Shown: piece after piece, positions 4,754 to 63,313 of the stretch
Numbering within the stretch: the first letter of the stretch is position 1
Layout: each line of letters begins with the position of its first letter
Source of the DNA: a virus
Taxonomy: Duplodnaviria > Caudoviricetes
Reading direction: 5' to 3' (one strand)
DNA: 64,000 nucleotides
Virus record (IMG/VR): IMGVR_UViG_3300033068_001747
The notes under the pieces: generated by a model
What the model was told of the DNA's origin: nothing
Databases searched by the model: none
Seen by the model: the letters and a program-made list of their open reading frames with translations, nothing else
Program-made: the position numbers and the translations under genes

Positions 4754-5347
4754 ATGAAATACTTAAAATTATTTGAAAGATTCTCAACATTTGAACATGA
4801 TTTTGGACAATTCAAAATTAAAGTGATTGAAGCAAGTCCCAATAATTATGATGGTGGAATACAAGTAGATTCTGCAACTATTGCTTGTGGTGATAGTGAA
4901 TACTACTTTGAATTACATACACCAGTAGGTGGTGAAGGAGAAGTACATGTAAAATACTTGGCATGTGAAAATGGTAATTCTGAATTTATTAACCAATTTG
5001 GTTTAGAAGAAGATTCATTTCTTAATGAAAATGAATTAAGTGAGTTTCTACAAGTAAATTCACCTGATTGTGTTGGATATGATACTGAAATTGATGGTTA
5101 TGAATTAGAAATTACTGATTTTAATCATGATGGTGGAATGGAATTAGGTACTATAGAAACTATTATAAATGGTGAAGAAATTCAATTTGAAATGATACAA
5201 GATGCTACTACAGGTTTTGGATTTGGAGTTGAATTTGATAGTGATAGAGATGAGAAAAAAGCAAGAGAAATAGGTTTTGAACTCACTGATGAAATAAGAG
5301 AGTACTTATTCAATGAATATGATAGAATATGTGCAGAAAAAAGATAA
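4754..5347 (+). CDS. Acidic hypothetical protein with MKYLKLFE N-terminal tag and an internal two-domain repeat
   Basis: ORF; duplicated segments YDGGIQVDSA...YFEL and HDGGMELGTI...QFEM. Confidence 0.75.
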   Translation: MKYLKLFERFSTFEHDFGQFKIKVIEASPNNYDGGIQVDSATIACGDSEYYFELHTPVGGEGEVHVKYLACENGNSEFINQFGLEEDSFLNENELSEFLQVNSPDCVGYDTEIDGYELEITDFNHDGGMELGTIETIINGEEIQFEMIQDATTGFGFGVEFDSDRDEKKAREIGFELTDEIREYLFNEYDRICAEKR

Positions 5348-5353
5348 ATAAAT

Positions 5354-5932
5354 ATGAAATACTTAAAACTATTTGAAAACTTCTCTGGTAAAATATCTGA
5401 GAACTTACAATACCACATAGATAACAACAAACCAATTGTGGAAAATGTATTTAGACCAGGATCAAATAAATACCTTGACCTAATCAAAGAAGCAAGACAA
5501 TTATTTGATAATAATCAAATTGAATTATCAGAATTAGACACTGAATTATATGAATCAACTGATATAGGAAGATTTGCAGAATATGAAGGTCAGATAGTTG
5601 CACTTGATTTACCAATGGAAACTATTGAAGAGTTAAATGAAGCAGAATACAAAGGTAGAGAAGTAAAGTTAAACTATCCGATGAGAGGTGGTACTAAGAA
5701 ATATCATGTTTTTGTTAAAAATCCTAAAACAGGTAAAGTTAAGAAAATTGCATTTGGTGATGTACACGGTGGTTTAACTGCTAAAGTAAGTGATCCTAAA
5801 GCAAGAAAAGCTTTTGCAGCAAGACATAATTGTGATATGAAGAAAGATAAAACTAAAGCAGGTTATTGGGCTTGTAGAGTAAATAAATATGGACACCTTT
5901 GGGGTGGAAAAACTTATCCTGGTTATTGGTAA
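5354..5932 (+). CDS. Tagged protein with a C-terminal DUF6321-like basic domain
   Basis: MKYLKLFENF start; EAEYKGREVKLN...KKIAFGD...FAARHNC...GYWAC resembles a conserved T4-like phage domain. Confidence 0.65.
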   Translation: MKYLKLFENFSGKISENLQYHIDNNKPIVENVFRPGSNKYLDLIKEARQLFDNNQIELSELDTELYESTDIGRFAEYEGQIVALDLPMETIEELNEAEYKGREVKLNYPMRGGTKKYHVFVKNPKTGKVKKIAFGDVHGGLTAKVSDPKARKAFAARHNCDMKKDKTKAGYWACRVNKYGHLWGGKTYPGYW

Positions 5933-5933
5933 T

Positions 5934-6320
5934 ATGAAATATATAAAATTATTTGAAGAACATAGTGATAAACAATCAGTAGTATCATTCTTACTAGACT
6001 TTGGTATGTTTATAACTTTGAATTTATCTAAAGTAGAGAATGAATCCATAGATGAACAATCTAAATCCGAATTATCAAAAATGTTATCAGAGTTAAGAAA
6101 GCCTCTAATAAATGGGAAAACATTCAGTGAACTAACACTAGATATAAACTCAATAGTAAACAATCCAAAGATTTTATCAGGACTATTCTCTCAAGTAAGA
6201 ACTCTATTGATTTATATAGAACCTAGGATTCAAAAATTTGTAAAAGACAGTGATAAGAAAAATATATGGTTAGATAAAATCAATAACTTTAAAGAAAGAT
6301 ATAAAAATATAGTAAACTAA
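5934..6320 (+). CDS. Hypothetical protein with MKYIKLFEE tag
   Basis: Start re-assigned to ATG 5934, 1 nt after the previous stop. Confidence 0.7.
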   Translation: MKYIKLFEEHSDKQSVVSFLLDFGMFITLNLSKVENESIDEQSKSELSKMLSELRKPLINGKTFSELTLDINSIVNNPKILSGLFSQVRTLLIYIEPRIQKFVKDSDKKNIWLDKINNFKERYKNIVN

Positions 6321-6589
6321 TGTTACCATTTAAAGAGGAAGTAATATCAACTAATGTATTCATTAGAGAGTTTAGTCAAGACACTGACTCTGGAGAGTTT
6401 ATGTGGCATCGTGATAGGGAAGATAGAATAATTGAATCTATTAGTGATACAGATTGGCAAGTACAATTAGACAATGAACTACCTAAAATTATTAAAGGTG
6501 AAGTATTTATACCAATGGGTGTTTACCACAGAGTTATAAAAGGAACTGGAGATTTAAAAATAAAACTAATAAAAAACCCTATTATCTAA
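6320..6589 (+). CDS. Small cupin-like protein
   Basis: WHRDRE...FIPMGVYHRVIKG cupin-type motifs. Confidence 0.6.
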   Translation: MLPFKEEVISTNVFIREFSQDTDSGEFMWHRDREDRIIESISDTDWQVQLDNELPKIIKGEVFIPMGVYHRVIKGTGDLKIKLIKNPII

Positions 6590-6600
6590 TAGGGTTTTTA
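6571..6600. terminator. Bidirectional intrinsic terminator
   Basis: aaaaaaccctatta-tc-taatagggttttt between convergent genes. Confidence 0.75.
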
Positions 6601-10316: not shown

Positions 10317-10333
10317 ATTATTTATTTAAGTGA

Positions 10334-14512: not shown

Positions 14513-15043
14513 CTATTTTTGATTAACATTAGATATTTTTGTGATATTTTCCTTCATATCCTTTTCTATTCTCGCCAAATTATCTTTGTGTTTCTTCTCT
14601 GCAAATGTAAAATCAGTTTGTGTTTTAGTAACTTTCTTCAATAACTCTTGAATTTTCACATTGACTGCTTGTTTCGTAGTAGCATCTGTAGATAACTTTA
14701 ATTCCTCTTGATAATTTTTATTTTCTTGATCCATTTTTAACAAATCACTTTGCATTCTAGCCAAAGTTGAATATTCCACAAGAAATGGATTTCGATCTGG
14801 TCCGTTTTGAACTGCTTGATCTCCTAATATTCTAACTAATTCTCTTTCAAGTTGAACAGAATCTTTAATATTCTTATAAGCATTATCAATCTGAGGTCGT
14901 TTAGTTTTATAATCAGCTAGTTGTTTACTAAGATTTTCCATACTTTGTTTATTCATCTTAATATCAACTGGATCAGTTTCTTCAACCGGTATAGCAATAC
15001 CATCTGCTTCTAAAAATAATTTATAATTTTTTAAATGTTTCAT
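14513..15043 (-). CDS. Coiled-coil protein with MKHLKNYKLFLE tag
   Basis: ORF, heptad-rich. Confidence 0.7.
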   Translation of the reverse strand: MKHLKNYKLFLEADGIAIPVEETDPVDIKMNKQSMENLSKQLADYKTKRPQIDNAYKNIKDSVQLERELVRILGDQAVQNGPDRNPFLVEYSTLARMQSDLLKMDQENKNYQEELKLSTDATTKQAVNVKIQELLKKVTKTQTDFTFAEKKHKDNLARIEKDMKENITKISNVNQK

Positions 15044-17679
15044 TATTGTTTTTTAATTTGGATTCCTGTTTTAGATCTTACCTGTGTTTTTGCAGGTTTA
15101 TTACCTGCTTGTAAAATAACAGCATCTAATTTTGGTTCAGTAGTATTATCAATAGTATAAACTTTTTTATCTTTACTATAAACTAACCAATAAATGTCAG
15201 AAATGTCTTTAAATATAGGTTCAGTTACTTTACCATCATTATCAACAGAAGAAACTTTTATTGTATTATTTAACTTGAAAATATCATTAAACTCATTTAC
15301 TTTAATCATAGTATATTTAGGAGGTAAAGTACCATCTATAGCCAATCCCATTTCAAATGTACCCTTAGCTATATCTTTTTGAGTACCATTCATCTTATTC
15401 AAGTATTTATTTCTATAATAAGGAATTAAAGTATATGACATATAGATTTCACCATTTGAAACCTCATGAATTAAAAATGTTCTTTGTCTTCTCTTACCTT
15501 CCTCATTTGTATAAGCAATTGTAAAAAATGTATTAGGTTTTAAATCAACTCCTTTAATAGGAGGAGCAACTTTACCTAATTCTAACTCTAATTTCTGTTT
15601 AGAACTCTCTAATGTTGCAGCATCTGCTAAATCTTTCTCATCTAATACTGCCATTGCAGTTTGATTATTAGTTCCTGCACCATCACCGAAATATGAATCA
15701 ACAAAGCCAGCAACTTTACCTCTCTCATTACCAGATTTATACAGTTTCTCACCATCTAATATATCATTTATAAATTTATTAAATTGAAGACCTGCGTTAG
15801 GTCTGATTTCCCAATCTCCAGGATTAGAATAATCAGGATTAGTTACCTTTGGTAATCTTAGATTAGCATTCTTAGTAAACAATACCTGATATTTACGATT
15901 CTTTCTTATATCATTAACTGCTTCTTCCCAAGCATCAAACAATTTATTATTTCTATAAGGACCATTTCTACCACTATCACCATCAGAACCACCACCAAAT
16001 GAAGTATATTCAGATAATGTATTTGTATCAACCTTCTCACTTCTTTTAGTAATTGTTTGAACAGTATATAACTTATAAGCTTTTATGAAAAGATTCATTA
16101 TTTCAATGATAGGGTCTAAACTCATAGTTATACCCTCAGGATTTTCCTTTTTCTTAGCTTCTAATTCATCTCTTAACTTAGTAGTTTCCTCTTCTGAGAT
16201 AGTAAATGCTCTAACCTCTTTACAATTTTCATTAAAGAAGTCTAATATTTTCTTAGTAGAATCGGTACTATCACCTTGTACTTCTTGCTCATCATTTGTA
16301 GTTTGATTCTCAACTGGCTTCTCATCAGGTTTACCGGAAGGTAAAATATTTTGTGCTTCTAAAAACGTAAAATAAGAAAGTACCGACTCTTTTTTAACAG
16401 TAACAATAGGCACTTTATTTATCTCTTTTAAAGTAGATACAAATGTTTGTAAAGGAACTTTTAAATCTCCTAAACCACCATATAAGTTCTCTTTTTCAAA
16501 TTGAGATGCTCTTTTAGAAAATCTCGCAATTTTCTCAGCAATAATAACTACTTTATTTCTATCTGATAAAACCTCAATACCTTCATTATAAAGTCTATCC
16601 TTTTCTTGTATTGTTGCCTTTTTATCACCAACCAAATATCTATTTATCTCATTATAAAGATTTTTTATAAGTTCTTTATTTTTACTATCGTTAGAATTTG
16701 TTGCAATATCATTAATTAAATTATAATCAACTGAAATACCTTTTTCCTTAGGTGAAATTAATACTTCAATATCTTTTCTCAATTTATTAAAAGCTTGTGT
16801 TAAGTGATCTTCACCAACAACTGTTTTACCTCTATCTGCAGCACCACCAGTACCAAATGAGTCAGCACCTTCCATAAGAAGAACCATTCCTGAAGGAAGT
16901 GATTGATCATTATTGGTAAATTTAGCTAACTTAGTATTTTTGGTTCTTATTGTGTCAATATCTAATCGATTAGGGTTTTTAGTATTATCACTTTGAATTA
17001 AACTTAATTTATCACCATTCACGGTAGTATATGTTTTCTTTGTTTTACCGTTAGCACCTGTTGATGAACCAGTACTAACTTTCTTATAATTTGCTAATAC
17101 CAAAGCAAGTGCTTTTAGATTTTTAACCATTAAACCATACGAATTAATGTTACCATCTGTACCTTTTTCTTCAGTAGTTTCTGTAGAATTTTGATCTTTA
17201 AATTGGTTTAAGAAATCTCTAAACTTTTTAAGTTCCTCTAGTAAAATCTCTTTTTTATCTAGATTTTTCACATCATTAACTGCTTTAATTGCACCATCTG
17301 TTAATCCTATCAACTCAGATACAGGATGACCATTTTCCACCGCAAATATCAACTCCTTAAAGAAAGAGGATAAAGTTATTCTAAGTAATAATAACTGTTG
17401 ATCACCATCTAGAGAGAATACAACAGATTGGTCTAAAAGATAATCAAATTGCTCTCTTAACCTTTCTGTCAATTTTTTAATTTGCCCAACTTTTCTAGCA
17501 ATTCTTGCTTTTCTAATGATATGATTGATTAGACGTCCTAATAAAGAGTCATTCCAACCAACATCATTTGCAAATGGACCACTATTAAATTCAGCTTCTT
17601 CGTTTATTGACTTGATTTTATTTATAGAGTTAGAGTTTTTCTCTCTAAGAAAATCCTCTCTTTTATTCAAATATCTCAT
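15043..17679 (-). CDS. Large tagged virion-associated protein with a LysM-like insert
   Basis: MRYLNKREDFLRE start; KTYTTVNGDKLSLI...IRTKN...LPSGMVLL is LysM-like. Confidence 0.6.
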   Translation of the reverse strand: MRYLNKREDFLREKNSNSINKIKSINEEAEFNSGPFANDVGWNDSLLGRLINHIIRKARIARKVGQIKKLTERLREQFDYLLDQSVVFSLDGDQQLLLLRITLSSFFKELIFAVENGHPVSELIGLTDGAIKAVNDVKNLDKKEILLEELKKFRDFLNQFKDQNSTETTEEKGTDGNINSYGLMVKNLKALALVLANYKKVSTGSSTGANGKTKKTYTTVNGDKLSLIQSDNTKNPNRLDIDTIRTKNTKLAKFTNNDQSLPSGMVLLMEGADSFGTGGAADRGKTVVGEDHLTQAFNKLRKDIEVLISPKEKGISVDYNLINDIATNSNDSKNKELIKNLYNEINRYLVGDKKATIQEKDRLYNEGIEVLSDRNKVVIIAEKIARFSKRASQFEKENLYGGLGDLKVPLQTFVSTLKEINKVPIVTVKKESVLSYFTFLEAQNILPSGKPDEKPVENQTTNDEQEVQGDSTDSTKKILDFFNENCKEVRAFTISEEETTKLRDELEAKKKENPEGITMSLDPIIEIMNLFIKAYKLYTVQTITKRSEKVDTNTLSEYTSFGGGSDGDSGRNGPYRNNKLFDAWEEAVNDIRKNRKYQVLFTKNANLRLPKVTNPDYSNPGDWEIRPNAGLQFNKFINDILDGEKLYKSGNERGKVAGFVDSYFGDGAGTNNQTAMAVLDEKDLADAATLESSKQKLELELGKVAPPIKGVDLKPNTFFTIAYTNEEGKRRQRTFLIHEVSNGEIYMSYTLIPYYRNKYLNKMNGTQKDIAKGTFEMGLAIDGTLPPKYTMIKVNEFNDIFKLNNTIKVSSVDNDGKVTEPIFKDISDIYWLVYSKDKKVYTIDNTTEPKLDAVILQAGNKPAKTQVRSKTGIQIKKQ

Positions 17680-18377: not shown

Positions 18378-18875
18378 ATGAAAAACTTAAAATTATATGA
18401 GAATTTTTCCGGTAAAATAAAATATACTAAACCCGAAGATCTTGATACACAAGAAGTTGTTGAGTTAGTTGGAATTTTATTTGAATTAAAACCTACTCTA
18501 CCAGATGAATTTCCTAACAAAGATTTATCACCTTTAATCAAAAATGAGGTATCTTATCTATCTGATGATGATAGATTTAATATCGTAGTTGGGTTCAGTG
18601 AAAATGATGTTTATGTAAACAAGGAAGGTGAACTGGTCTCTGGTAAATATAAAACAATATTTAAGGTAAATATCAGTAGAACCGAAAAAGAAAGTTTTAA
18701 ATTATCAGAAGTTAAAGAATACATTCTTTTAACATCACAATTAGTTGAAAAAACTTATGATAAAGTTAAAATGTTAGTTAAGATAAATGAAGAGAAGTTA
18801 TCGATGGAAGATTTTGAGAAATTATCAGATAATGATGAAATAGAAGAAATAACATTTCTTATAAAAATATACTAG
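18378..18875 (+). CDS. Tagged hypothetical protein (paralog family A)
   Basis: MKNLKLYENF; SYLSDD...FKLSEVKEYIL. Confidence 0.7.
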   Translation: MKNLKLYENFSGKIKYTKPEDLDTQEVVELVGILFELKPTLPDEFPNKDLSPLIKNEVSYLSDDDRFNIVVGFSENDVYVNKEGELVSGKYKTIFKVNISRTEKESFKLSEVKEYILLTSQLVEKTYDKVKMLVKINEEKLSMEDFEKLSDNDEIEEITFLIKIY

Positions 18876-21275: not shown

Positions 21276-21863
21276 ATGAAAAATATTAAAACATTTGAAT
21301 CATTCTCCGAAGGAGAAGAAATAAACGAATCTTTAGGAGGAATAATAAAATCAGTAATAACATTTCCATTTACAGTAATTGCCCTACTAGGAATGCAATT
21401 TGTAAATGGTAGAACAATATCAAAAGTAATTAGAGAAAGACTTTTAGATATTTATGCAAATATTGATACACTAATAGCAACTTTAGAAAATATTCTAAGA
21501 AAAACTGATATTACTGATGTTGAAAAACGAAAAGTTCTTTCTAAATTAAAAGACTTAAAGAAAGTTAAAGAGAAATACCCAACTTTACAAAGTTACAAAC
21601 AAGAGGTAAGTAAAAAAGTAATTTTTTATAACTTTAAAAATAGAGATTATTTGAGAAATCAAATTTGGGAATATGAACCTAGACAAATGAGTGCAATGCA
21701 AGTAGCAGCAGAACTAACAAAAGTTTATAAACTTATAGAAAGAGGTGATGTAACTGGAGAGGTTGCTGCACGTGAACCTATTAGAAATAGATTTCAAGAA
21801 CGTTTAAATGGTCTGATAGGGGGAAATGCACCCGAAGAACAAAATCCAGACGGACAAAGATAA
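21276..21863 (+). CDS. Tagged protein with a hydrophobic segment
   Basis: MKNIKTFESF...INESLGGIIKSVITFPFTVIALLG. Confidence 0.7.
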   Translation: MKNIKTFESFSEGEEINESLGGIIKSVITFPFTVIALLGMQFVNGRTISKVIRERLLDIYANIDTLIATLENILRKTDITDVEKRKVLSKLKDLKKVKEKYPTLQSYKQEVSKKVIFYNFKNRDYLRNQIWEYEPRQMSAMQVAAELTKVYKLIERGDVTGEVAAREPIRNRFQERLNGLIGGNAPEEQNPDGQR

Positions 21864-43734: not shown

Positions 43735-43761
43735 AAAAAGTCCTTGAAAAAGGACTTTTTT
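43733..43761. terminator. Bidirectional intrinsic terminator
   Basis: aaaaaaagtcctt-gaaa-aaggactttttt. Confidence 0.8.
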
Positions 43762-44266
43762 ATTTTATTTTTATATTTTCAAGGTCTTTGATAATATCAT
43801 CAATATACTTATTGTATTTTGTTGCATTTACATTTCTTTTTATAGAACTCTCAAAGAAATCTATTATACCTTCAACTTGTGAAGATATTTCTTCTGTTTT
43901 TTCTGATATATAAGGCATTCTAATATCTTCTCTTTCATAACTATCAAAAAATTCAGGGAATCTTTCAATAACTTTTTTTGCTGTTTCTTCTTCTTTACCT
44001 GGTTCACACTTAACTAAAAATCCTCTATCATAAGGTTCACCTATCAATTTAAGACCTAATCTTCTTAGTAATTTTTCAGCAAAGTCATAATCAACATCAC
44101 GACCTTCAGACCAGATAATTATTTCACCTTTTTGATATATTGGTGATCTTAATGACATAGTTTCTAAATTAGTAACGTCAATTGTTTCATCAGTATTTCG
44201 GGTTCTATAATCTGAACCACTTTGGTGAGCCGGAACGATACCTTCAAATAATTTTATGTATTTCAT
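43760..44266 (-). CDS. Tagged protein with a subtilase-prodomain/I9-like segment
   Basis: MKYIKLFEG; YQKGEIIIW...FLVKCEPGKEEE...YERE. Confidence 0.55.
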   Translation of the reverse strand: MKYIKLFEGIVPAHQSGSDYRTRNTDETIDVTNLETMSLRSPIYQKGEIIIWSEGRDVDYDFAEKLLRRLGLKLIGEPYDRGFLVKCEPGKEEETAKKVIERFPEFFDSYEREDIRMPYISEKTEEISSQVEGIIDFFESSIKRNVNATKYNKYIDDIIKDLENIKIK

Positions 44267-48506: not shown

Positions 48507-48716
48507 TCATTTTCCGATATTTAATACTAGTTTCCATTCACCAGCAGTTGTTTGACCTATAACTTTATAACTTCTAATAGATTCCATTCTGACAAATCTA
48601 AGTATTTTACTCAATTTATCATGAAACATTTCTTGTGACTCTCCATTTTCGAACCACTCAAGTTTGTATTCTATAAATACATCTTTATTTTCATTAAATT
48701 TTTTCAAGTACCTCAT
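48507..48716 (-). CDS. Small tagged protein
   Basis: MRYLKKFNEN. Confidence 0.65.
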   Translation of the reverse strand: MRYLKKFNENKDVFIEYKLEWFENGESQEMFHDKLSKILRFVRMESIRSYKVIGQTTAGEWKLVLNIGK

Positions 48717-48948: not shown

Positions 48949-49242
48949 ATGATGTTTAAAATAGTTAATCAATCATTATATTTATGTGATAATATAGGTA
49001 ATCTTGGAAGAAGAATAGCAGAGAATGTTGCCTTTGGTACTTATGACGATTCACAAAAGATTTTTTTAATAACTAACATAGATGGTAAATTAGAAACCAA
49101 AGATATAATGGGTAATAACATTAGAGTTTTATCTCAAGGAGTATTAGAAGCAAGATTCTCAGGAACAGACATTTTAGTTCGTAAAAGAGACGGTAAAAAC
49201 GTTCTAATAGATAAAATGGGTAATATCAAAAGATATTTTTAA
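48949..49242 (+). CDS. Small beta-repeat hypothetical protein
   Basis: Repeated D-x-[IM]-G-N units. Confidence 0.6.
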   Translation: MMFKIVNQSLYLCDNIGNLGRRIAENVAFGTYDDSQKIFLITNIDGKLETKDIMGNNIRVLSQGVLEARFSGTDILVRKRDGKNVLIDKMGNIKRYF

Positions 49243-50852
49243 ATTATTCTTAAATACCTTGGTGTAGAATCAAAAAGATCCGTTTGAATAGAAAGTGCAT
49301 ATCTCATAATACCAGTAATCGCAATATTTGCATCAGTTGGCTCTTCTGACTGAAGAATTGCAAGTGCAACCAATAATTGAATTGATTGTAATTTAGATAT
49401 TAATCTATTCTTAATATTATTTACCTCACTACCTTCTTCTAAGTTACTATACATTTTACTAGCAGCACCACTTTTATTTTTTGTAGATAATTGATCTATA
49501 AGATTGGGTACTAGATCTAATAAATCATTATGTGCTGATAAAATCATATCTCTCAACTCATCTTCAGACTTTGTAACTAATCTAGAATATAGATCAATAT
49601 TTAAGCCATATCTAGTAATAAATCCATTTCTTTCAAAAGATGAAATAATAGAATTAAGTGTTATTTTACCGTGTCTTGAAGATCTTCCTAAAATATCACC
49701 ATCAATATTTCTAGCTTTTCCAGTATCAGAAGAATCAAAAACTATATCTCTGGATGAACTTTCTACTTCTCCTACATCATTAGTTCCTTCAGACATCCAA
49801 ACAGATTTAACTCTTAATTTAGATGCAATACCTTTTAACGGATCATCAGTTATAATAAACCTATCAATTGTAAAATCAGGTAGTTTTTTATTTAACTCTT
49901 TATTAACAATAATCCTATCACCTTCTTTAAATTTTTTAAGTGATACAGGAATAAGTTGATTACTATCAAAATAATGGTCTAATAACTTAACTAAACCACC
50001 TATAGAAGTTTGAGATTTTATTTGTCTATTGATTTCGGATAACGATCTTTCAACAACGATATAAACATCTGCTGGACAAAATTTAGAGAAATTAACTTTA
50101 GAGTTAGATAATTTTTTTAATTCATTATACTTTTTAACAATGTTAACAACAGGTGAAATAGGGTCATTATTAGATTCAAGAAAAACTAAATACTTTCTAT
50201 TATTATTTACTCTTGGAAATATTCCTTTAAAATCAATTAAAATATCAGGGACTCTAATAAAAGTATTTAACCAATCTCTATTAGTTGATAAACTATCTAT
50301 CATCTCACGTGTTAAAGTAAACTTTGGATCTAAATAAATACCAATTCTTTTAAATACTTCATCATTTTTATTAACGTAATTTTCCCAAAAATCAATAACT
50401 CTTTCCTTATCCATTATCTCACCAGGATATCTTAATCTAAATGCAATAAATAAACATTGTATCGCCTCATACTTTCTTGTCAAAACACCAGGTCCTACTG
50501 CACCAAACTCAGAAGTTTTTGTTACTTGATTTAGTTTAAATCCTTTACTACCAGAAAATAAAACATCATCATATTTCGTATGACCAGGTGGCTTAGTAAA
50601 TACTTTCCTTGCCTTATCAGAAGAATAATGATTATTTGTACTAATTGCATCAGCTGCTTTGGCAGGTGTAATCTTTTTACCATCCACCTTCACAGTAGTT
50701 ATGTTTTTTTCACCTTCACCTTTAATTGAAAGTTTTGCTGGCTTTTCTTTTAGTTTTTTAACTAATATATCTCCACGTTTTTCACCACCTCGATCTTTAT
50801 CTAACTCGGTTAAATTAAGCTCAACTTCTTCAAATAATTTTAAGTATTTCAT
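49239..50852 (-). CDS. Tagged protein with a PD-(D/E)xK restriction-endonuclease-like motif
   Basis: MKYLKLFEE at 50852; YE..QC, KFCPADVYIV...LIPVSLKK. Confidence 0.55.
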   Translation of the reverse strand: MKYLKLFEEVELNLTELDKDRGGEKRGDILVKKLKEKPAKLSIKGEGEKNITTVKVDGKKITPAKAADAISTNNHYSSDKARKVFTKPPGHTKYDDVLFSGSKGFKLNQVTKTSEFGAVGPGVLTRKYEAIQCLFIAFRLRYPGEIMDKERVIDFWENYVNKNDEVFKRIGIYLDPKFTLTREMIDSLSTNRDWLNTFIRVPDILIDFKGIFPRVNNNRKYLVFLESNNDPISPVVNIVKKYNELKKLSNSKVNFSKFCPADVYIVVERSLSEINRQIKSQTSIGGLVKLLDHYFDSNQLIPVSLKKFKEGDRIIVNKELNKKLPDFTIDRFIITDDPLKGIASKLRVKSVWMSEGTNDVGEVESSSRDIVFDSSDTGKARNIDGDILGRSSRHGKITLNSIISSFERNGFITRYGLNIDLYSRLVTKSEDELRDMILSAHNDLLDLVPNLIDQLSTKNKSGAASKMYSNLEEGSEVNNIKNRLISKLQSIQLLVALAILQSEEPTDANIAITGIMRYALSIQTDLFDSTPRYLRII

Positions 50853-50900: not shown

Positions 50901-52298
50901 ATGAACAATAAATTATCAAAATACGAACAATATCTTTTAGAACAAGATATACAAATGTTATCAGAAGCAAAAATTGTATTCGACGACAAATTTAATGCAC
51001 TCCTTAAAAGAATAAAAACACCAATTTCTAAAAATTTAAGAATGTTAAATGGAACTGAAGTTGATACAAATTATAATTATATCACATTTGATGTAGATAA
51101 AGAAGATAAAGTTTTCTTTATTCCAGATGATAAAGCCAAAAAAGTAGATGATCCATACACATTAAAAAAATCAGATATGAATATTGGTAGATTTGTAAGA
51201 GCAATTCTAACTAAAGCAGGACACGAAGTTAATAATAAAGAACTAGAAGAATTTGTAAGTAAATATAAAGCATCTATTCTAGTAGAAAAAGAATCTTTTA
51301 AAAGATTTGAAATAGTTAAAGGTGATGATATAAAATACTGGTATAATCTTAATCAGTATTATAGAGGAGATGGTACATTAGGTTCTTCTTGTATGAGATA
51401 TGCAAAATGTAGAGACTTTTTAGACATATACTCAAGAAATCCTGAAAGATGTTCTTTGATAATCTTAAAATCAAAAGGAGACGATTATAAAATAACCGGT
51501 AGAGCTTTACTTTGGTTAGATGATAAAGACAGAAAATTTATGGATAGAGTATATATTGAAGATTCTTCAGATACTCAACTATTTATTGATTATGCAATTG
51601 ATAACGGATTCTATTATAAGAAAAATCAAACTTATCAAATAGGTGATCCTATCATGTTTAATGGACAAGAACTAACTAAAGAAGATAGTTGGATTTACAT
51701 TACTTTAGAAAACGGTGGAGAATTTAGCAAATATCCTTATATGGATACTGTCAAATATTATACTCCTTATAGAAATCTACTAACAAATAACTGGACAGAT
51801 TCATACGAATATGAACTAACCGATACCGAAGGTGGTAATGGTTCTTGTTCTAACTGCGGTGGTTCGGGAGAAGTAGAATGTGAAGATTGTTGTGGTTCAG
51901 GAGAATACAGATGTTGGAGATGTGAAGGTGAAGGTGAAGTAGAATGTAGAGAATGTGATGGTTATGGAGAAGTAGATTGCCATGTTTGTGATGGTCATGG
52001 AGAAGTCGAATGTCCAGTTTGTGATGGTTATGCAGAAGTAACTTGTCCTCAATGTGATGGATCTGGTGAGTTTGAAGAAGGTCCTTGTGACAATTGTGAC
52101 TCATCAGGTAAAATACCTTGTTATAATTGTGAAACTGGTCAACTTACTTGCCCAGAATGTGAAGGAAGTTGTAAAGAAGAATGTGAAGATTGTGAAGGTA
52201 AAGGACTAGAAGAATGTACCTCTTGTGACGGAGATGGAACAACAGAGTGTCAAGAGTGTGGTGGAGATGGAAGAATAATATGTTATGAATGTAGTTAA
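50901..52298 (+). CDS. Paralog family B with 14 CxxC Zn motifs
   Basis: GSSCMRY, GRALLW, MDRVY, YPYMDT; 14 CxxC. Confidence 0.75.
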   Translation: MNNKLSKYEQYLLEQDIQMLSEAKIVFDDKFNALLKRIKTPISKNLRMLNGTEVDTNYNYITFDVDKEDKVFFIPDDKAKKVDDPYTLKKSDMNIGRFVRAILTKAGHEVNNKELEEFVSKYKASILVEKESFKRFEIVKGDDIKYWYNLNQYYRGDGTLGSSCMRYAKCRDFLDIYSRNPERCSLIILKSKGDDYKITGRALLWLDDKDRKFMDRVYIEDSSDTQLFIDYAIDNGFYYKKNQTYQIGDPIMFNGQELTKEDSWIYITLENGGEFSKYPYMDTVKYYTPYRNLLTNNWTDSYEYELTDTEGGNGSCSNCGGSGEVECEDCCGSGEYRCWRCEGEGEVECRECDGYGEVDCHVCDGHGEVECPVCDGYAEVTCPQCDGSGEFEEGPCDNCDSSGKIPCYNCETGQLTCPECEGSCKEECEDCEGKGLEECTSCDGDGTTECQECGGDGRIICYECS

Positions 52299-52303: not shown

Positions 52304-52822
52304 ATGATATACTTAAAAAAATTTAATGAGTCTAAAAAGCTCACAGAAGATGATATTACTTATTCAGTATTAGAAATATTGGATGAGGGGTTTACTTTTA
52401 ATGGAAATGCTTCTACATTTAACTTTAATTCTCAAATGAACATGATTTCATTTGTTAGAAGATGTGATACTAATAAAAATGAAATATTACCAGGTGAACG
52501 TAAATATGCAGATCCTCGTGATAAAGGAAGATGGATTTTAGCAGTAACAGGAATTCAAAGAAATGGTGACTATTCGGGATTTCAATATGGTAATGTTTGG
52601 AGAAAAAGAAACTATGAAATTCCTAAAGAACAAGAATACCTACGTAATATAGGATTTGAATCTGCAATTAAATTATTAAGACTAACTGATTATAAATACG
52701 TAACCTTATCAATACATTCAATACCAGGTGGATCTTGGAAAGAACCATTTTTTACAACAACAGAGTGTATTAAGTTTCAATTCAGTAATAATTTTGATGT
52801 TTCACCAATATCAGAAGATTAA
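52304..52822 (+). CDS. Tagged hypothetical protein (family A-like N-terminus)
   Basis: MIYLKKFNES...EILDEGF. Confidence 0.65.
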   Translation: MIYLKKFNESKKLTEDDITYSVLEILDEGFTFNGNASTFNFNSQMNMISFVRRCDTNKNEILPGERKYADPRDKGRWILAVTGIQRNGDYSGFQYGNVWRKRNYEIPKEQEYLRNIGFESAIKLLRLTDYKYVTLSIHSIPGGSWKEPFFTTTECIKFQFSNNFDVSPISED

Positions 52823-53358: not shown

Positions 53359-53602
53359 AAAACAAATTGTAAAGGATTATCTTATCAAGCTAGAAAAGAA
53401 TCAAGCTAGAATTATAATAAATGGAATTGATGATTTTAGTGATCATCCTTTTAGACCTTGGGTTAAAATATTTTATAGTGTTATAAAAAGAAAAAATAAA
53501 TTATACACTAAAGTAAATAAAGTATGGTCTGAATATGGGACTTTTGATAGTTTATTTATCTCTGAAATTAGAGACCAACGATTAAATGATTTAGGTGTTT
53601 AA
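53342..53602 (+). CDS. Small protein with C-terminal RD-motif
   Basis: Ends IRDQRLNDLGV. Confidence 0.6.
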   Translation: MTKEYKKQIVKDYLIKLEKNQARIIINGIDDFSDHPFRPWVKIFYSVIKRKNKLYTKVNKVWSEYGTFDSLFISEIRDQRLNDLGV

Positions 53603-54291
53603 CGACGACCGTAATTTTTCACTTGTTGTTGAGTTCTATTATCTTTATCAGATGCTGCAAAATATTTAATTACATTTGGATCTTTAAAATTATCCATCAG
53701 TTTACTATTTCTTAGACTATGATCTCTAAGATCTAATCTTTTCATATGATGATAATCTCCAACGATTCTTTTAATATTCAATTCTGGATTTTCTTTATAT
53801 AACCAATAAGGAACTTTAACATAGAAAAACCCTTCTTTTTCAGGAACTTCTCCTAAAATAGCAATTTGTGAAGTTGGCAAAGTACCTTTATGAAAAGTAA
53901 CAGAGTAAGGTCTAGCATTATCTATAAAAGTTGCAGTATCTGCAGCAAATTCTTTAATATTTAAAATTTCAATTGACTTTTCATTTTGTTTAGTAATAAA
54001 GTAAGCTGCAATTATTGCTCTTTCATCTGCCAAATAAGTAGCTTTATTAAAATCAAACTCTATATCGTCTCTATAGATATGTTTATCCAATGGTTTATAC
54101 TCTGCATAAAACTCGGTAGGTTTTGTATACCACTTATGTTCTGGCTTATCAATTCTATAATAGGAAATATAACCTGGCTTATCAGGATTTAATATAAATA
54201 TTTTCTGACCTTTATCATTGATCCATTTTGTACCAAATTCTGGTAACTCCTGTGTTGATTCAAATATCTTAAACTTTTTTAGAAACTGCAT
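53599..54291 (-). CDS. Tagged hypothetical protein
   Basis: MQFLKKFKIFES at 54291; TTAATATATA at 54311-20. Confidence 0.65.
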   Translation of the reverse strand: MQFLKKFKIFESTQELPEFGTKWINDKGQKIFILNPDKPGYISYYRIDKPEHKWYTKPTEFYAEYKPLDKHIYRDDIEFDFNKATYLADERAIIAAYFITKQNEKSIEILNIKEFAADTATFIDNARPYSVTFHKGTLPTSQIAILGEVPEKEGFFYVKVPYWLYKENPELNIKRIVGDYHHMKRLDLRDHSLRNSKLMDNFKDPNVIKYFAASDKDNRTQQQVKNYGRR

Positions 54292-56826: not shown

Positions 56827-57312
56827 ATGATTTATTTAAAAACTTTTGAAAAATATTCGGTTACTGAAGCAAATTTTAAAGATAAGCTTTACAATGCAAG
56901 TACCATTATAACTGGAAAGCCAATGACTTGGGAAATAAACAAAGAAAAAAATGAAAGACTTACTAGAGAAGTTGCACAAATTCTTATAGATAGAGGATAT
57001 AATCTAAATGAAGAAGGTGGAACTATGACAGATGGTTCAGAAATTTGGTCACTTCAAGATCAAGGAATGCAACCAATTGTCTTTAAAGCCAAACCTGATT
57101 ACTATGATAAAAGCATATTACAAATTGTAGTTAGTTTTTATTTCCCAAACAGAGAACATAGTGGTGAAAGTGAAATAATTGATATAGATGAAAATGACTT
57201 AGAAAGAACTGCAGATAAAGTATCAGAAGTTCTTGAAAGACTTAGAGCATTAGGTCATAGAGGTAATACATTTAGTAAACAAGGTAGTATTAAACTTCGA
57301 CTTGAAGACTAA
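56827..57312 (+). CDS. Tagged hypothetical protein
   Basis: MIYLKTFEKY. Confidence 0.7.
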   Translation: MIYLKTFEKYSVTEANFKDKLYNASTIITGKPMTWEINKEKNERLTREVAQILIDRGYNLNEEGGTMTDGSEIWSLQDQGMQPIVFKAKPDYYDKSILQIVVSFYFPNREHSGESEIIDIDENDLERTADKVSEVLERLRALGHRGNTFSKQGSIKLRLED

Positions 57313-57313: not shown

Positions 57314-57341
57314 AAAAAGAGAGACGAAAGTCTCTTTTTTT
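57314..57341. terminator. Intrinsic terminator (copy 2 of a direct repeat)
   Basis: aaaaagagagac-gaaa-gtctctttttt. Confidence 0.8.
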
Positions 57342-57762
57342 ATTTTTTATAACTAATCATTAAACCTAATCCCCATAGACTAGTATTCTCAACATTATCT
57401 TTAATAACTTGTTCTAATTTATAAAATTTGAAACCATTATGACTATCATCAGTATTAAAAAAAACTTCACCAACTTGACCATTTCCCGAAAAATTATCCA
57501 ACTCATATCTTCTTTCTAACATCTGTAAAAATGGAATATAATAATTCTTTACATCATTCCAATAAAATAGATCATATTCTTCTTGCCTTGGTAAATTAAG
57601 ATTTATCTTAAAAACTCTGATGTCTTTTCTCCAAGTATCTTCATAAACATCAATCTCATATCCCTCATCCAAAAGATAAGCTAAAGAGCTATTACAGAAA
57701 TCTTTTAACTCTTCTACTTCATCAGGTTGTAAATCTTCATTAAATCTTTTTAAAAATCTCAT
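57340..57762 (-). CDS. Tagged protein (paralog family A)
   Basis: MRFLKRFNE; FCNSSLAYLLDEGY...FYWNDVKNYYIPFL. Confidence 0.7.
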   Translation of the reverse strand: MRFLKRFNEDLQPDEVEELKDFCNSSLAYLLDEGYEIDVYEDTWRKDIRVFKINLNLPRQEEYDLFYWNDVKNYYIPFLQMLERRYELDNFSGNGQVGEVFFNTDDSHNGFKFYKLEQVIKDNVENTSLWGLGLMISYKK

Positions 57763-61156: not shown

Positions 61157-61160
61157 TAAA

Positions 61161-61610
61161 ATATATTTTGTAATTTTACATAAAGGCTCGTTCGCACCCA
61201 TGCACATAGGCCACTTAAATATAATTGAAAAAGCTGAAAGAATTTTCGGTAAAGGAAATGTTATAGTTGCAATTGGAGTAAATCCCGATAAAAACTATTT
61301 AGAAAGACAAGATCCAAAAGAACTTGAAAAGACTATAAATCGTCCTGTTATTACTTATGCTAAGTTTCTACACGAACTTGTAGAAGATTATGAGAAAGAA
61401 GGTTTAAAAGTAGTTATAATCAGAGGATTAAGAAATGGTACTGATTTAGATTATGAAGTAAATCAATTTAGATTTATAAACGACTTTAAGAAAGATATAA
61501 ACGTAGTTTATATTACTTGTGACCAAGAATTTGAACATATTTCTTCTTCTGCAATTAGAAAGATTGAACAATTTGGTGGACCAGATATGGTAAAAAAATA
61601 TCTTTTATAA
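61161..61610 (+). CDS. coaD: Phosphopantetheine adenylyltransferase-like protein; start codon uncertain
   Basis: GSFAPMHIGH, IIRGLRN..D..YE, HISSSAIR; homology extends upstream of the first ATG (61200). Confidence 0.7.
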   Translation: MYFVILHKGSFAPMHIGHLNIIEKAERIFGKGNVIVAIGVNPDKNYLERQDPKELEKTINRPVITYAKFLHELVEDYEKEGLKVVIIRGLRNGTDLDYEVNQFRFINDFKKDINVVYITCDQEFEHISSSAIRKIEQFGGPDMVKKYLL

Positions 61611-61813
61611 TGGTAGATTATATCGGTTGGTGTGAAGAATGTGCGGAGTTTAAAACTATAGTGATAGATACTGAAAAAAATTATAAAACTTCATATCACG
61701 AAGCAACATTTATGTGTAGTGAATGTACACAAAAACAAATAATAGAGAAAAGAGATAAAAAATTAAACCAGTTACTAAAACGTAGCTGGTTTGATAAATT
61801 ATTTAGAAATTAG
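61610..61813 (+). CDS. Small Zn-ribbon protein with RD-motif
   Basis: CEEC...CSEC; KRDKKLNQLLK. Confidence 0.6.
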   Translation: MVDYIGWCEECAEFKTIVIDTEKNYKTSYHEATFMCSECTQKQIIEKRDKKLNQLLKRSWFDKLFRN

Positions 61814-62252
61814 CAAATCTTTTAATTCTTTTTAGAAGGGTATCAGGTGTTTTATCTGTAACAGTTATATCAATAACCCTAATCATACCTGGTTTTATTT
61901 TATCCTTAACTATAGAATTAAGTGAGTGACCAATCCAGGCTTGTTGTGTAGAATATGAACCATATTTGACTCCTTTCGAGTATTCATAGAAATAAATTCT
62001 TGAAACATCATAGTCTTTATCAAGCCTTTTAAGAAAAGGAATAATATAATCCTTTACATTATCCCAATTAAATAGTTTATCGTTAGTATGTAAAGGTAGA
62101 TTTCTTTCATTAGGATTATTAGAAATAATAACTGAAAACGTATTCTTTTTATCTTCACCTGTCATAACTACCTCAACTTGAAAGTCTTCTTGATCTAATA
62201 AATAAGCTAGATTTGTCTCACAATAATCTATAAGTTCATCCCATTTTCTCAC
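61803..62252 (-). CDS. Paralog family A protein lacking the N-terminal tag
   Basis: YCETNLAYLLDQ...FNWDNVKDYIIPFL; GTG start. Confidence 0.65.
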   Translation of the reverse strand: MRKWDELIDYCETNLAYLLDQEDFQVEVVMTGEDKKNTFSVIISNNPNERNLPLHTNDKLFNWDNVKDYIIPFLKRLDKDYDVSRIYFYEYSKGVKYGSYSTQQAWIGHSLNSIVKDKIKPGMIRVIDITVTDKTPDTLLKRIKRFANF

Positions 62253-62254
62253 AA

Positions 62255-63313
62255 TTAAACATTTCTTTTATTTGAAAGATAATCAGTATAATTTGCTACA
62301 ATTGAATTTACTTTTTTGAAGTCACGTGGAGTTTTACCAGTAAAATCAACATCTAAGTAAAATAAAAATTCAAAGAAATCTAAATTATATTTATTTATAT
62401 CTCTTACAAGATTTTTATTATTTAAAACCTGAATTATTTTTTCTTGTGTGATTTTATCATTCATATCTTTTAGATAACCGTTCTTGATCATCCATTTTTT
62501 TAGACCGTGAAATCTAACATAAACCTCCGCAGGTGAAGTTAAATACTTAGTATCTTTTTTATCATCAAACATTCCAGAAAACTGATTTTTGAAATCATCT
62601 TCTGCCTCTTTAAATACCTTTTTACCTTCTTCATCATGAACATCCTCATATTTAACATCCACTGCTAATTCAACTAATTTTCTAGAGTAAAAGTCAATTT
62701 TTTCTTGTAATCTTTTCTTACCTTCAGGAGTTCCTAATACAATGTCCTTATCTAAAATATCAACTATATTTGTAAGTTCACTATAATCTTGACTATCAAA
62801 TTCATCACCTCCTAAAATATCATCAACTAAATGTCTAAGTTCATGAATAATGATATGAGGTGCAGCAAATGAACTAAGTTTCTTCTCATCAATTATAATT
62901 GCAGTAACTAATTGCATTTTCTCATTAAAGTGTCTAAAGTAACAAGCCATAGTACCTTCATTCTCACCAATTATCTCCATTGTCTTACTATCAACACAAA
63001 CAAACTTTATATCTTTAACAATAGATATGACTTTTTGTTTTTTGATAGAGTCAATATTATTAGTTGTTTCAATATCTTTGATTAGTTCTGCTCTAATCTT
63101 TTCAATAAAAGCACTCTCACTTTTTGAAGGTTGATTATTTATATCGTTTATTGTAGCATCTATTTCCTTACCTGTCATATGAGGTAAAGTTTTCTTACCA
63201 AAATAATGATTTATCCCAATTGCAATAGCTAATCCAACAATAAGTTGTTTCCAGGTTACTTCAACCTCGTTTTTTTCATTGAGTAACTCCTCACTAGATT
63301 TAATATGCTTCAT
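62255..63313 (-). CDS. Tagged, membrane-anchored zincin metallopeptidase-like protein
   Basis: MKHIKSSEELLNE at 63313; TM LIVGLAIAIGI; HELRH; downstream PAEVYVR. Confidence 0.65.
   Translation of the reverse strand: MKHIKSSEELLNEKNEVEVTWKQLIVGLAIAIGINHYFGKKTLPHMTGKEIDATINDINNQPSKSESAFIEKIRAELIKDIETTNNIDSIKKQKVISIVKDIKFVCVDSKTMEIIGENEGTMACYFRHFNEKMQLVTAIIIDEKKLSSFAAPHIIIHELRHLVDDILGGDEFDSQDYSELTNIVDILDKDIVLGTPEGKKRLQEKIDFYSRKLVELAVDVKYEDVHDEEGKKVFKEAEDDFKNQFSGMFDDKKDTKYLTSPAEVYVRFHGLKKWMIKNGYLKDMNDKITQEKIIQVLNNKNLVRDINKYNLDFFEFLFYLDVDFTGKTPRDFKKVNSIVANYTDYLSNKRNV

What the first reader, a model, noticed from the sequence alone, without database searches (positions are those of the whole stretch)
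4754..63313. MKYLKLFE N-terminal tag on about 20 late proteins: capsid-targeting-like signal
Seen, by start coordinate: MKYLKLFE (4754, 5354, 50852), MKYIKLFE (5934, 44266), MKNLKLYE (18378), MKYLQTHE (18879), MKNIKTFE (21276), MKHVKAFE (26817), MIYLKTFE (56827), MRYLKKFNE (48716), MIYLKKFNE (52304), MRFLKRFNE (57762), MQFLKKFKIFE (54291), MKHLKNYKLFLE (15043), MRYLNKREDFLRE (17679), MNKLKKYNDFLILE (30915), MLKKYIDFITE (40018), MITNYYDYITE (38534), MNNKLSKYEQYLLE (50901), MKHIKSSEELLNE (63313). Established: T4 internal proteins use a roughly 10 aa N-terminal capsid targeting sequence removed by gp21, which cuts after Glu. Inference: a large, diverse cargo of head-packaged, injected proteins, including a nuclease-like protein, a peptidase and membrane proteins.
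Basis: partly seen in the sequence, partly recalled or inferred. Interest (0 to 1): 0.8.

Follow-up and report, generated by a model that had tools for sequence, protein, structure and literature searches.

The report
T4-like head-loading tag, hugely expanded
A quarter of the genes in this piece of an uncultured huge phage of Flavobacteria-type hosts start with the same short detachable peptide, which resembles the tag phage T4 uses to load three or four proteins into its head; the phage may therefore pre-pack a very large protein cargo, but nobody has measured this.

Summary
All 21 listed N-termini exist on intact reading frames, which is 21 of about 84 genes in the window. The motif occurs only at gene starts. 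It is absent from the AT-rich phage PTm1, from T4 and from 549 kb of Flavobacteriales DNA.

The tag is a portable add-on:
- The tagged proteins are mostly unrelated to each other.
- Phage SET-domain proteins carry it, while 64 of 64 chromosomal bacterial homologues lack it.
- In phage ClpC-like ATPases it replaces the N-domain.
- AlphaFold2 leaves it outside the fold.

Every tagged gene sits behind a T[AT]ATATATA motif or directly follows a tagged gene that does. In close relatives this motif precedes the T4-type head protease and the major capsid gene. The relatives' protease-scaffold protein has 10-12 repeats whose core resembles the long-form tags and the T4 tag. Hydrophobic-x-Glu sites are twice as dense just after the tags.

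The best reading (about 0.55) is a T4-style capsid-targeting propeptide, massively expanded. Packaging, cleavage and injection are not shown. The record itself lacks the head genes. "Nuclease-like" and "peptidase" found no support. A phage-encoded ClpCP protease keeps a degron reading alive.

This scan has noted the same tag on at least six other genomes. I found no paper describing it.

The parts
4754..5347 (+). tagged gene, 197 aa, short-form tag (8 aa ending L-F-E)
   Evidence: promoter-like motif ends 23 nt upstream; no Pfam family
5354..5932 (+). tagged gene, 192 aa, short form; second gene of a tagged run
   Evidence: no motif of its own, follows 4754 on the same strand; the relative has three non-homologous tagged genes at this site
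5934..6320 (+). tagged gene, 128 aa, short form; third gene of the run
   Evidence: starts 2 nt after the stop of the previous gene
14513..15043 (-). tagged gene, 176 aa, 12-aa tag; directly upstream of the tail sheath gene
   Evidence: the orthologue in LR745206 (42% id) keeps the tag
15043..17679 (-). tagged gene, 878 aa, 13-aa tag ending L-R-E; heads the run 878 aa - 176 aa - sheath
   Evidence: motif 24 nt upstream; the orthologue in LR745206 (about 30% id) keeps the first part of the tag but not the final Glu; no family
18378..18875 (+). tagged gene, 165 aa, short form
   Evidence: motif 5 nt upstream; absent at the syntenic place in LR745206
18879..19457 (+). tagged gene, 192 aa, short form (T-H-E end)
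   Evidence: weak paralogue of 18378; absent at the syntenic place in the relative
21276..21863 (+). tagged gene, 195 aa, short form, one predicted membrane segment
   Evidence: motif 4 nt upstream; absent in the relative; a tag-like scar lies in the C-end of the gene before it
26817..27347 (+). tagged gene, 176 aa; tag 1-8, variable basic spacer, near-invariant I-K-E at 20-22, fold from residue 23
   Evidence: 230 family representatives; E22 is one of five near-invariant columns
30915..31586 (+). tagged gene, 223 aa, 14-aa long-form tag ending I-L-E
   Evidence: motif 28 nt upstream
37143..38534 (-). tagged gene, 463 aa, long-form tag closest to the T4 tag; paralogue trio; C-terminal DnaJ-type zinc finger
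   Evidence: motif 4 nt upstream
38588..40018 (-). tagged gene, 476 aa, long-form tag, four hydrophobic-x-Glu sites in the first 28 residues; paralogue trio
   Evidence: motif 21 nt upstream
43760..44266 (-). tagged gene, 168 aa, short form
   Evidence: motif 4 nt upstream
48507..48716 (-). tagged gene, 69 aa, 9-aa form ending F-N-E
   Evidence: motif 16 nt upstream
49239..50852 (-). tagged gene, 537 aa, short form; divergent from 50901 across a 48-nt spacer with two back-to-back motifs
   Evidence: phrog_1462 of unknown function; no match in cultured phages
50901..52298 (+). tagged gene, 465 aa, 14-aa long form; paralogue trio
   Evidence: motif 5 nt upstream
52304..52822 (+). tagged gene, 172 aa, 9-aa form; follows 50901
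53599..54291 (-). tagged gene, 230 aa, 11-aa form ending I-F-E
   Evidence: motif 19 nt upstream supports this start over the upstream ATG at 54381
56827..57312 (+). tagged gene, 161 aa, short form
   Evidence: motif 23 nt upstream
57340..57762 (-). tagged gene, 140 aa, 9-aa form
   Evidence: motif 4 nt upstream
62255..63313 (-). tagged gene, 352 aa, 13-aa form ending L-N-E; hydrophobic stretch after the tag
   Evidence: motif 4 nt upstream supports 63313 as the start

Best explanation
The peptide is most likely a T4-style capsid-targeting propeptide.

It is short (8-14 residues). It has Lys/Arg at positions 2 and 5, hydrophobic residues at about 4, 7 and 10, and an end of hydrophobic-x-Glu. 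It is bolted onto the N-terminus of many unrelated late proteins.

Inferred steps:
1. During head assembly the peptide docks on the scaffolding core. In this lineage the core is the repeat-bearing C-terminal part of the head protease protein.
2. The cargo is thereby enclosed in the prohead.
3. The T4-type (S77) head protease then cuts after the Glu, and often again at a second hydrophobic-x-Glu site at the edge of the folded domain.
4. The trimmed proteins stay with the DNA and may enter the host with it.

Shown here: the tag exists, is N-terminal only, is portable, lies outside the fold, and shares an upstream motif with virion genes. Relatives have a T4-type head module.

Inferred only: docking, cutting, packaging and ejection.
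For: 1. The tag is portable.
- The tagged proteins are unrelated by BLAST, except one paralogue trio and one weak pair.
- Phage SET-domain proteins carry the tag plus 5-10 residues in front of a core that 64 of 64 chromosomal Flavobacteriales homologues start with directly.
- Among the 120 best ClpC-like homologues (54-96% id), nearly all full-length ones start with short or long tag forms, then a variable acidic spacer, in place of the Clp N-domain.

2. The tag lies outside the fold.
- In the SET model, residues 1-8 have pLDDT below 50 and the rest is confident.
- In window protein 26817 the fold starts at residue 23, just after the near-invariant E22.
- Fused relatives of that protein align only from about residue 15-17.

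3. Co-expression with virion genes.
- T[AT]ATATATA occurs 74 times in the record. 51 copies lie 50 nt or less upstream of a start on the same strand.
- It precedes 21 of 30 tagged genes against 29 of 148 untagged genes (p = 1.5e-7).
- The tagged genes without it directly follow a tagged gene that has it, or in one case outside the window an untagged one.
- Portal, sheath and the 1934-aa protein have it, and terminase has a close variant.
- In LR745206 and 80 relatives it precedes the head protease (39 of 80 against a 2.5% background) and the capsid gene (39 of 71).

4. T4-type head machinery in the lineage.
- TerL is 75% identical to huge phage LR745206.
- LR745206 has a Gp23-family capsid protein and a weak Peptidase_S77 match, 20 bits, below the cut-off.
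- Sheath and a gp19-like tail tube are present here.

5. Sequence likeness.
- The T4 tag (PMC8442874) fits the long-form pattern Y-x-acid-aromatic-I/L-x-E.
- The same heptad is repeated 10-12 times in the relatives' protease-scaffold protein.
- In this genome 4 of 7 such heptads are N-terminal (odds ratio 23).
- Real T4 substrates contain K-I-F-E-N, L-F-E-S and L-F-E-E, like the short tags.

6. [LIVM]-x-E is twice as dense in the 30 residues after the tags as in untagged N-termini or gene bodies (p = 0.005 and 0.0009).

7. Tail, portal, terminase and DNA or RNA enzymes are untagged.

8. Tagged genes turn over as cassettes at fixed sites, as the T-even internal-protein genes are said to do (PMC3012670 describes the T-even internal proteins as diverse apart from the tag).
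Against: - There are no virion or cleavage data of any kind.
- No capsid, scaffold or head-protease gene lies in this 132-kb record. That link rests on relatives at 75% TerL identity, and the S77 match there is below Pfam's cut-off.
- Only 13 of the 21 window tags have L or I at P3, as the T4 rule asks. T-F-E, A-F-E, T-H-E and F-N-E ends do not.
- Conservation runs past the Glu (Asn at +1, aromatic at +2), unlike the T4 tag.
- More distant members of the 26817 family keep the hydrophobic 4-7-10 pattern but lose Glu-8.
- A weight matrix built from the scaffold repeats does not pick out the tags (4 of the top 40 hits). Three of the four N-terminal heptad hits are paralogues.
- The cargo would be very large (17-25% of genes). 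It would include a 682-aa hexameric ClpC-type unfoldase and proteins with membrane segments.
- The nearest cultured phage, PTm1, has no such tags, so no published proteome can be consulted.
Confidence: 0.55

Rival explanations
1. The tag is a docking peptide for some late destination other than the head interior. Candidates are a viral factory, the membrane-bound assembly site, a chaperone, or the outside of the particle. It may not be removed at all.
For: The tag is portable, lies outside the fold and sits on late genes. All of this fits any common docking partner. The conserved hydrophobic 4-7-10 face extends past the Glu. Distant family members lose Glu-8 but keep that face. Some tagged proteins have membrane segments.
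Against: It does not explain the near-invariant acidic end. It does not explain the doubled density of hydrophobic-x-Glu sites behind the tag, nor the near-invariant Glu at the domain edge. It also leaves unexplained the likeness to the T4 tag and to the scaffold repeat.
Confidence: 0.17
2. The tag is an N-terminal degradation or recognition signal for the phage's own ClpCP protease. It would give timed turnover of a set of late or accessory proteins.
For: The phage encodes a true ClpP (window 36375-37112, 181 bits). It also encodes a ClpC-type ATPase with the ClpP-docking V-G-F loop. Both are highly conserved in the lineage. The start of the tag (polar, two hydrophobic residues, basic, hydrophobic) looks like the ClpX N-motif-1 as I recall it from Flynn et al. 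2003. That comparison is from memory and was not checked here.
Against: The ATPase itself carries the tag in place of its substrate- and adaptor-binding N-domain. A degron needs no terminal Glu and no downstream hydrophobic-x-Glu sites. Making a quarter of the genes from the same promoter type as the head genes only to destroy the products is not economical. The likeness to the T4 tag would be coincidence.
Confidence: 0.1
3. What is conserved is a DNA or mRNA cassette (late promoter plus start region) that drives expression or mediates recombination between gene cassettes. The peptide is a by-product.
For: In 12 or more genes the motif ends only 4-5 nt before the ATG. Those mRNAs may therefore be leaderless, and the first codons could matter for initiation. 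Tagged genes are swapped as cassettes at fixed sites, and a tag-like scar sits in the C-end of 20418-21272.
Against: Tags are equally present on genes with 16-31-nt leaders and on second or third genes without a promoter. Untagged genes also have the 4-5-nt spacing. Codon use in the tags is ordinary. Substitutions are conservative at the protein level (I/L/V, F/Y, K/R), and short and long forms interchange within one family. Recombination may still be a secondary effect.
Confidence: 0.07
4. It is a product of AT-rich composition, or the remnant N-terminus of one fast-diverging paralogous family.
For: K, Y, L, F, I and N are all AT-rich codons. Most tagged proteins have no known domain.
Against: AT-rich PTm1 has 0 matches, Flavobacteriales DNA has 0 and the reversed-pattern control has 0. 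There are no internal matches. The tag sits on SET, ClpC-like and other unrelated folds.
Confidence: 0.02

Closest known systems
Capsid targeting sequence (CTS) of phage T4 internal proteins IPI, IPII, IPIII and Alt, removed by prohead protease gp21 (Mullaney and Black 1996; PMC3012670, PMC5694885, PMC8442874)
   Same: It is an N-terminal peptide of about 10 residues on otherwise diverse proteins and ends in hydrophobic-x-Glu. The T4 tag fits the long-form pattern seen here. The carriers are variable accessory genes, and the lineage has a T4-type capsid protein, protease, terminase, sheath and tube.
   Different: T4 tags three or four proteins, while here the tag is on 21 of about 84 genes in the window and about 30 in 132 kb. 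A second, shorter consensus dominates. Its conservation runs two residues past the Glu, and P3 is L or I in only 13 of 21. Carriers include a ClpC-type ATPase and a host-derived SET enzyme. No packaging or cleavage has been measured.
Long N-terminal propeptides of head and ejection proteins of phiKZ-like giant phages (SPN3US, phiKZ, 201phi2-1), cut at A/S/G-x-Glu by an S80 protease related to gp21 (PMC5694885)
   Same: Many head-internal proteins (about 50 head proteins in SPN3US) are processed after Glu, often at several sites. One such protein has a predicted membrane helix.
   Different: Those propeptides are 20-130 residues long and share no common short consensus. The phage lineage and the protease family are different.
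Scaffold proteins cut to pieces by the head protease (T4 gp22, gp67, gp68)
   Same: The relatives' protease-scaffold protein carries 10-12 repeats, each holding an I/L-A-Glu site. T4 gp22 has 16 [LI]-x-Glu sites.
   Different: Here the scaffold part is fused to the protease and is built of exact 13-residue repeats. The likeness between repeat and tag is at pattern level only.
N-terminal degrons of Clp proteases (ClpX N-motifs; recalled from memory, not checked here)
   Same: They are short N-terminal signals with basic and hydrophobic residues, and the phage encodes ClpC and ClpP.
   Different: Degrons need no terminal Glu, and here the unfoldase itself carries the tag.
Mobile promoter cassettes (PeSL) that shuffle genes in T4-type phages (Arbiol et al. 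2010; recalled from memory, not checked here)
   Same: A short conserved unit at gene starts flanks variable genes in plastic regions.
   Different: PeSL are early promoters with stem-loops and encode no peptide.

Membership tests
T4-type capsid targeting sequence / gp21-removed propeptide | Short peptide at the extreme N-terminus only | tested here: met
   16 core matches at ORF starts and 0 internal. 1 of 749 internal Met scores 8 bits or more, and that one is a true start.
T4-type capsid targeting sequence / gp21-removed propeptide | Ends in the protease motif (L/I)-x-Glu | tested here: inconclusive
   The end is acidic in 15 of 16 unbiased matches. P3 is L or I in 13 of 21 window tags, and the others have T, A or F. 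Extra [LIVM]-x-E sites are enriched twofold behind the tag.
T4-type capsid targeting sequence / gp21-removed propeptide | Portable: fused to unrelated proteins and not part of their fold | tested here: met
   BLAST. SET proteins tagged in phages and untagged in 64 of 64 bacterial loci. ClpC-like family. AlphaFold2 models.
T4-type capsid targeting sequence / gp21-removed propeptide | The same genome encodes a T4-type (S77) prohead protease and a scaffolding core | tested here: inconclusive
   Not found in this 132-kb fragment. Relative LR745206 has a Gp23 capsid protein and a sub-threshold S77 match in a protease-scaffold ORF. 80 IMG/VR relatives have the same ORF, at least six on contigs that also carry the tag pattern.
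T4-type capsid targeting sequence / gp21-removed propeptide | Expressed with the head genes (late) | tested here: met
   The upstream motif is shared with portal and sheath here, with terminase as a close variant, and with the protease and capsid genes in relatives. This is inferred from sequence; no transcript data exist.
T4-type capsid targeting sequence / gp21-removed propeptide | Tagged proteins are present in virions with the tag removed | not testable with these tools
   The phage is uncultured. The nearest cultured phages lack the tag.
T4-type capsid targeting sequence / gp21-removed propeptide | The tag alone suffices to load a foreign protein into the head | not testable with these tools
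   This needs an experiment.
Sec/lipoprotein signal peptide | Hydrophobic core of 7-15 residues after a basic start | tested here: not met
   The tag is amphipathic and is followed by acidic or polar residues. True signal peptides in the same genome look quite different.
Clp N-terminal degron | Confers Clp-dependent degradation | not testable with these tools

The most novel reading that the evidence does not exclude
Huge T4-related phages of Bacteroidota use one scaffold-mimicking N-terminal tag to load on the order of 60-100 different proteins into the head. The load includes a ClpC-type unfoldase and a methyltransferase taken from the host, so a ready-made proteome is delivered with the DNA. 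New cargo is recruited simply by adding about 10 codons behind a late promoter.
Probability: 0.35. Interest if true: 0.85.

Novelty: new variant of a known kind. Interest (0 to 1): 0.66.

Why it matters
If the tag works as in T4, it gives a sequence-only way to list the pre-packaged, probably injected, proteins of a whole clade of uncultured huge phages. Most of those proteins have no known function and change quickly, as expected of host-takeover or anti-defence factors.

It would also show how a phage recruits host genes into its virion. The SET enzyme is a clean before-and-after example.

It would give a natural, very short loading tag for engineering large capsids.

The promoter-like motif found here also offers a first handle on late gene regulation in these phages.

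Tried and rejected
- Head genes in the record. Pfam Peptidase_S77 and Gp23 searches of the own record found nothing. The head module had to be studied in relatives.
- Cultured relatives for proteome data. The nearest (PTm1, PAU, about 32% TerL identity) are too far. PTm1 has no tags, so no published virion proteome could be used.
- Function of the tagged window proteins. Pfam, PHROGs, PDB sequences, the protein Atlas and Foldseek on one model gave no firm family. The 537-aa protein has no tblastn match in phage records.
- ClpC-like protein against phage records. The hits were mostly bacterial-type genes in poorly curated records and were of no use.
- Weight matrix from the scaffold repeats. 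It did not enrich for tags, so I claim only a pattern-level likeness.
- Complex prediction of the scaffold repeats (relative L204) with the first 45 residues of 38588-40018. The verdict was 'no answer', which is no evidence either way.
Bacterial context of the untagged SET genes was shown with the search for related loci instead.
- Composition artefact, a host-proteome habit, a signal peptide and a single paralogous family were each considered and rejected on the controls above.
- The RlaP-type protein at 28324-29478 matched my loose long-form pattern. Its N-terminus aligns with the Pfam domain itself, so I do not count it as tagged.

Full report
**What the window is.** The window is bases 32001-96000 of a 132,473-bp IMG/VR virus record with 28.6% G+C. 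It encodes a 1372-aa tail sheath, a large terminase and a weak gp19-like tail tube. A portal gene lies just outside the window. The terminase is 75% identical to that of the 634,780-bp uncultured huge phage LR745206. It is 72% identical to LR756502 and 41-44% identical to LR756504 and the 735-kb records. The nearest cultured phages (Tenacibaculum PTm1, Sphingomonas PAU) reach only about 32%. The record is therefore a fragment of a huge T4-related phage. Its SET gene points to Flavobacteriales hosts.

**Observation.** That is 21 of about 84 genes called in the window.
- A leave-one-out weight matrix at 8 bits or more finds 16 of 19 short-form members and 3 other gene starts.
- A core pattern that does not ask for the Glu hits 16 ORF starts and no internal site. 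15 of the 16 are acidic at position 8 or 9.
- The strict DNA pattern occurs 10 times here and 21 times in LR745206. It never occurs in PTm1 (225 kb, equally AT-rich) or T4, nor when the pattern is reversed.
- 549 kb of Flavobacteriales chromosome holds none.
- Codon use in the tags is ordinary.

**The tag is an add-on, not part of the proteins.**
- Apart from one paralogue trio (37143, 38588, 50901) and one weak pair, the tagged proteins share nothing detectable beyond the tag.
- Two tagged proteins outside the window have known domains.
- The SET-domain protein is the cleaner case. About 40 phage homologues carry the tag plus a few residues in front of a conserved core. The 64 chromosomal homologues checked start directly with that core and have no tag in frame upstream. 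They include Flavobacterium aquatile, F. gelidilacus and a complete Olleya chromosome, at 55-79% identity to the untagged query P0056.
- The ClpC-like ATPase is the second case. Nearly all full-length proteins among the 120 best homologues (54-96% identity) begin with short or long tag variants. A variable acidic spacer and the conserved start of the first AAA+ domain follow, so the tag stands where the Clp N-domain normally is.
- AlphaFold2 on the SET protein (50-row alignment, mean pLDDT 85) gives residues 1-8 pLDDT below 50, with a confident fold after them.
- In window protein 26817-27347 (72-row alignment) the tag is a low-confidence helix and residues 14-22 are coil. The fold starts at residue 23, directly after an I-K-E whose Glu is one of five near-invariant columns of the family. 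Longer relatives, in which this domain follows another region, align only from about residue 15-17.

**Expression.**
- A motif T[AT]ATATATA occurs 74 times in the record. 51 copies lie within 50 nt upstream of a gene start on the same strand.
- It precedes 21 of 30 tagged genes and 29 of 148 untagged genes (p = 1.5e-7).
- In the window 16 of 21 tagged genes have it. The other five directly follow a tagged gene that has it.
- Untagged genes with it include portal, sheath and the 1934-aa protein. Terminase has a close variant.
- In LR745206 it stands before the head protease, the capsid gene and terminase.
- In 80 IMG/VR relatives the strict form precedes the protease in 39 of 80, against a 2.5% background, at 16-36 nt. 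It precedes the capsid gene in 39 of 71.
- I read it as the late promoter of this lineage, the counterpart of the T4 late promoter TATAAATA (established knowledge). This is an inference from sequence alone.

**Link to head assembly.**
- LR745206 has a Gp23-family capsid protein (89 bits). Upstream of it is a long ORF whose N-terminal part gives a weak Peptidase_S77 match of 20 bits, below the cut-off.
- That ORF continues into 10-12 tandem 13-residue repeats and an acidic tail, in LR745206 and in 80 relatives.
- The repeat core (Tyr, any residue, acid, Tyr, Ile/Leu, Ala, Glu) has the same pattern as the long-form tags here and as the T4 tag quoted in PMC8442874.
- In this genome that heptad pattern occurs 7 times, 4 of them within the first 12 residues (odds ratio 23). 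Three of those four are paralogues.
- A weight matrix made from the repeats does not find the tags in general. The likeness is therefore at pattern level only.
- T4's own substrates, read from NC_000866, contain K-I-F-E-N in the gp23 propeptide. They also contain L-F-E-S and L-F-E-E in gp22, close to the short tags.
- [LIVM]-x-E is twice as frequent in the 30 residues behind the tags as elsewhere. This is expected of multi-site propeptides such as those of T4 and SPN3US (PMC5694885).

**Turnover.**
- Orthologues in LR745206 keep their tags (14513, 26817 and genome 10335). The 878-aa protein keeps the start of the tag but not the final Glu.
- Tagged genes 18378, 18879 and 21276 are absent at the syntenic place.
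- The site upstream of the SbcD-like gene holds three tagged genes in both phages, but they are not homologous.
- This resembles the diverse T-even internal proteins, which share only the tag (PMC3012670).

**Rivals.**
- The phage has a true ClpP (window 36375-37112) and a ClpC-type ATPase with the ClpP-docking loop. A degron reading therefore cannot be dismissed. Against it, the ATPase itself carries the tag, and that reading leaves the Glu features unexplained.
- A docking role for some other late structure explains portability and timing, but not the Glu features.
- A pure DNA or mRNA cassette is unlikely. Tags occur with 4-5-nt spacing, with 16-31-nt spacing and with no promoter at all. 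Untagged genes share the short spacing, and the variation is conservative at the protein level.

**What is not supported.** 'Nuclease-like' and 'peptidase' were not recovered by any search. Packaging, cleavage and injection remain untested.

**Literature and earlier notes.** Full-text searches found no paper with this tag or with a capsid-targeting sequence in huge phages. Earlier notes of this scan report the same tag on at least six other genomes and reach the same reading without experiments. I treated them as leads only.

Noticed in passing
whole record, e.g. window 50853-50900 (two back-to-back copies between the divergent genes 50852 and 50901): The promoter-like motif T[AT]ATATATA(C) has a bimodal spacing to the ATG. 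It is either 4-5 nt, which would give leaderless or nearly leaderless mRNAs, or 16-31 nt.
   Followed up: partly
window 36375-37112 (+), and G000 100747-102795 (-) outside the window: The phage encodes a full ClpCP system. ClpP (181 bits) has a conserved 35-residue N-terminal extension that holds three hydrophobic-x-Glu motifs. The ClpC-type ATPase has a V-G-F docking loop, its N-domain is replaced by the tag, and a tag-like stretch sits at its C-end. ClpP is 87-100% identical across contigs of up to 656 kb.
   Followed up: partly
window 21225-21251 (C-end of gene 20418-21272): A tag-like stretch (K-I-I-K-T-F-E-S-F) lies a few residues before the stop of an untagged gene. It shares 12 identical bases with the tag of the next gene, 21276. 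It looks like a scar of cassette insertion by recombination between tags.
   Followed up: no
L204-L283 and L006:40293-42122 (relatives, not this record): The T4-type head protease is fused in frame to a scaffold-like region of 10-12 exact 13-residue repeats followed by an acidic tail.
   Followed up: partly
G000 9875-10324 (-), outside the window: A tagged SET-domain methyltransferase is closest to chromosomal genes of Flavobacterium, Olleya, Lacinutrix and Winogradskyella. This is a host-to-phage transfer and a host clue.
   Followed up: yes
window 37143-38534, 38588-40018, 50901-52298: Three paralogues (35-45% id) have long-form tags and a C-terminal DnaJ-type CxxCxGxG zinc-finger region (PDB 1exk, E = 6e-5).
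   Followed up: partly
window 17776-18348, 27717-28334; G000 25351-25809, 98067-98255: Otherwise unrelated proteins share a stretch of about 30-45 residues, C-terminal in the two window proteins (38-68% id). It may be the second 'address' noted earlier for this genome.
   Followed up: no
window 32579-33811 (-): A phage-encoded NusA-like protein (NusA_N plus KH domains).
   Followed up: no
window 25829-26242, 31967-32551, 33879-34700: Genes with signal-peptide or lipoprotein-like N-termini stand behind the same late-type motif, or a close variant of it.
   Followed up: no
window 28324-29478, 44538-45473, 42556-43734, 55876-56751: A set of RNA-repair and tRNA-related genes: an RlaP nucleotidyltransferase, a HAD 'Swiss Army Knife' domain plus a tRNA-binding domain, and truncated aminoacyl-tRNA synthetase-like proteins. 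All are untagged.
   Followed up: no
P0361-P0510 (family of window 26817-27347): More distant members replace Glu-8 of the tag by Lys, Asn or Gly. They keep hydrophobic residues at 4, 7 and 10, a basic spacer and the later hydrophobic-x-Glu at the domain edge. The tag may therefore have separable docking and cutting parts.
   Followed up: partly
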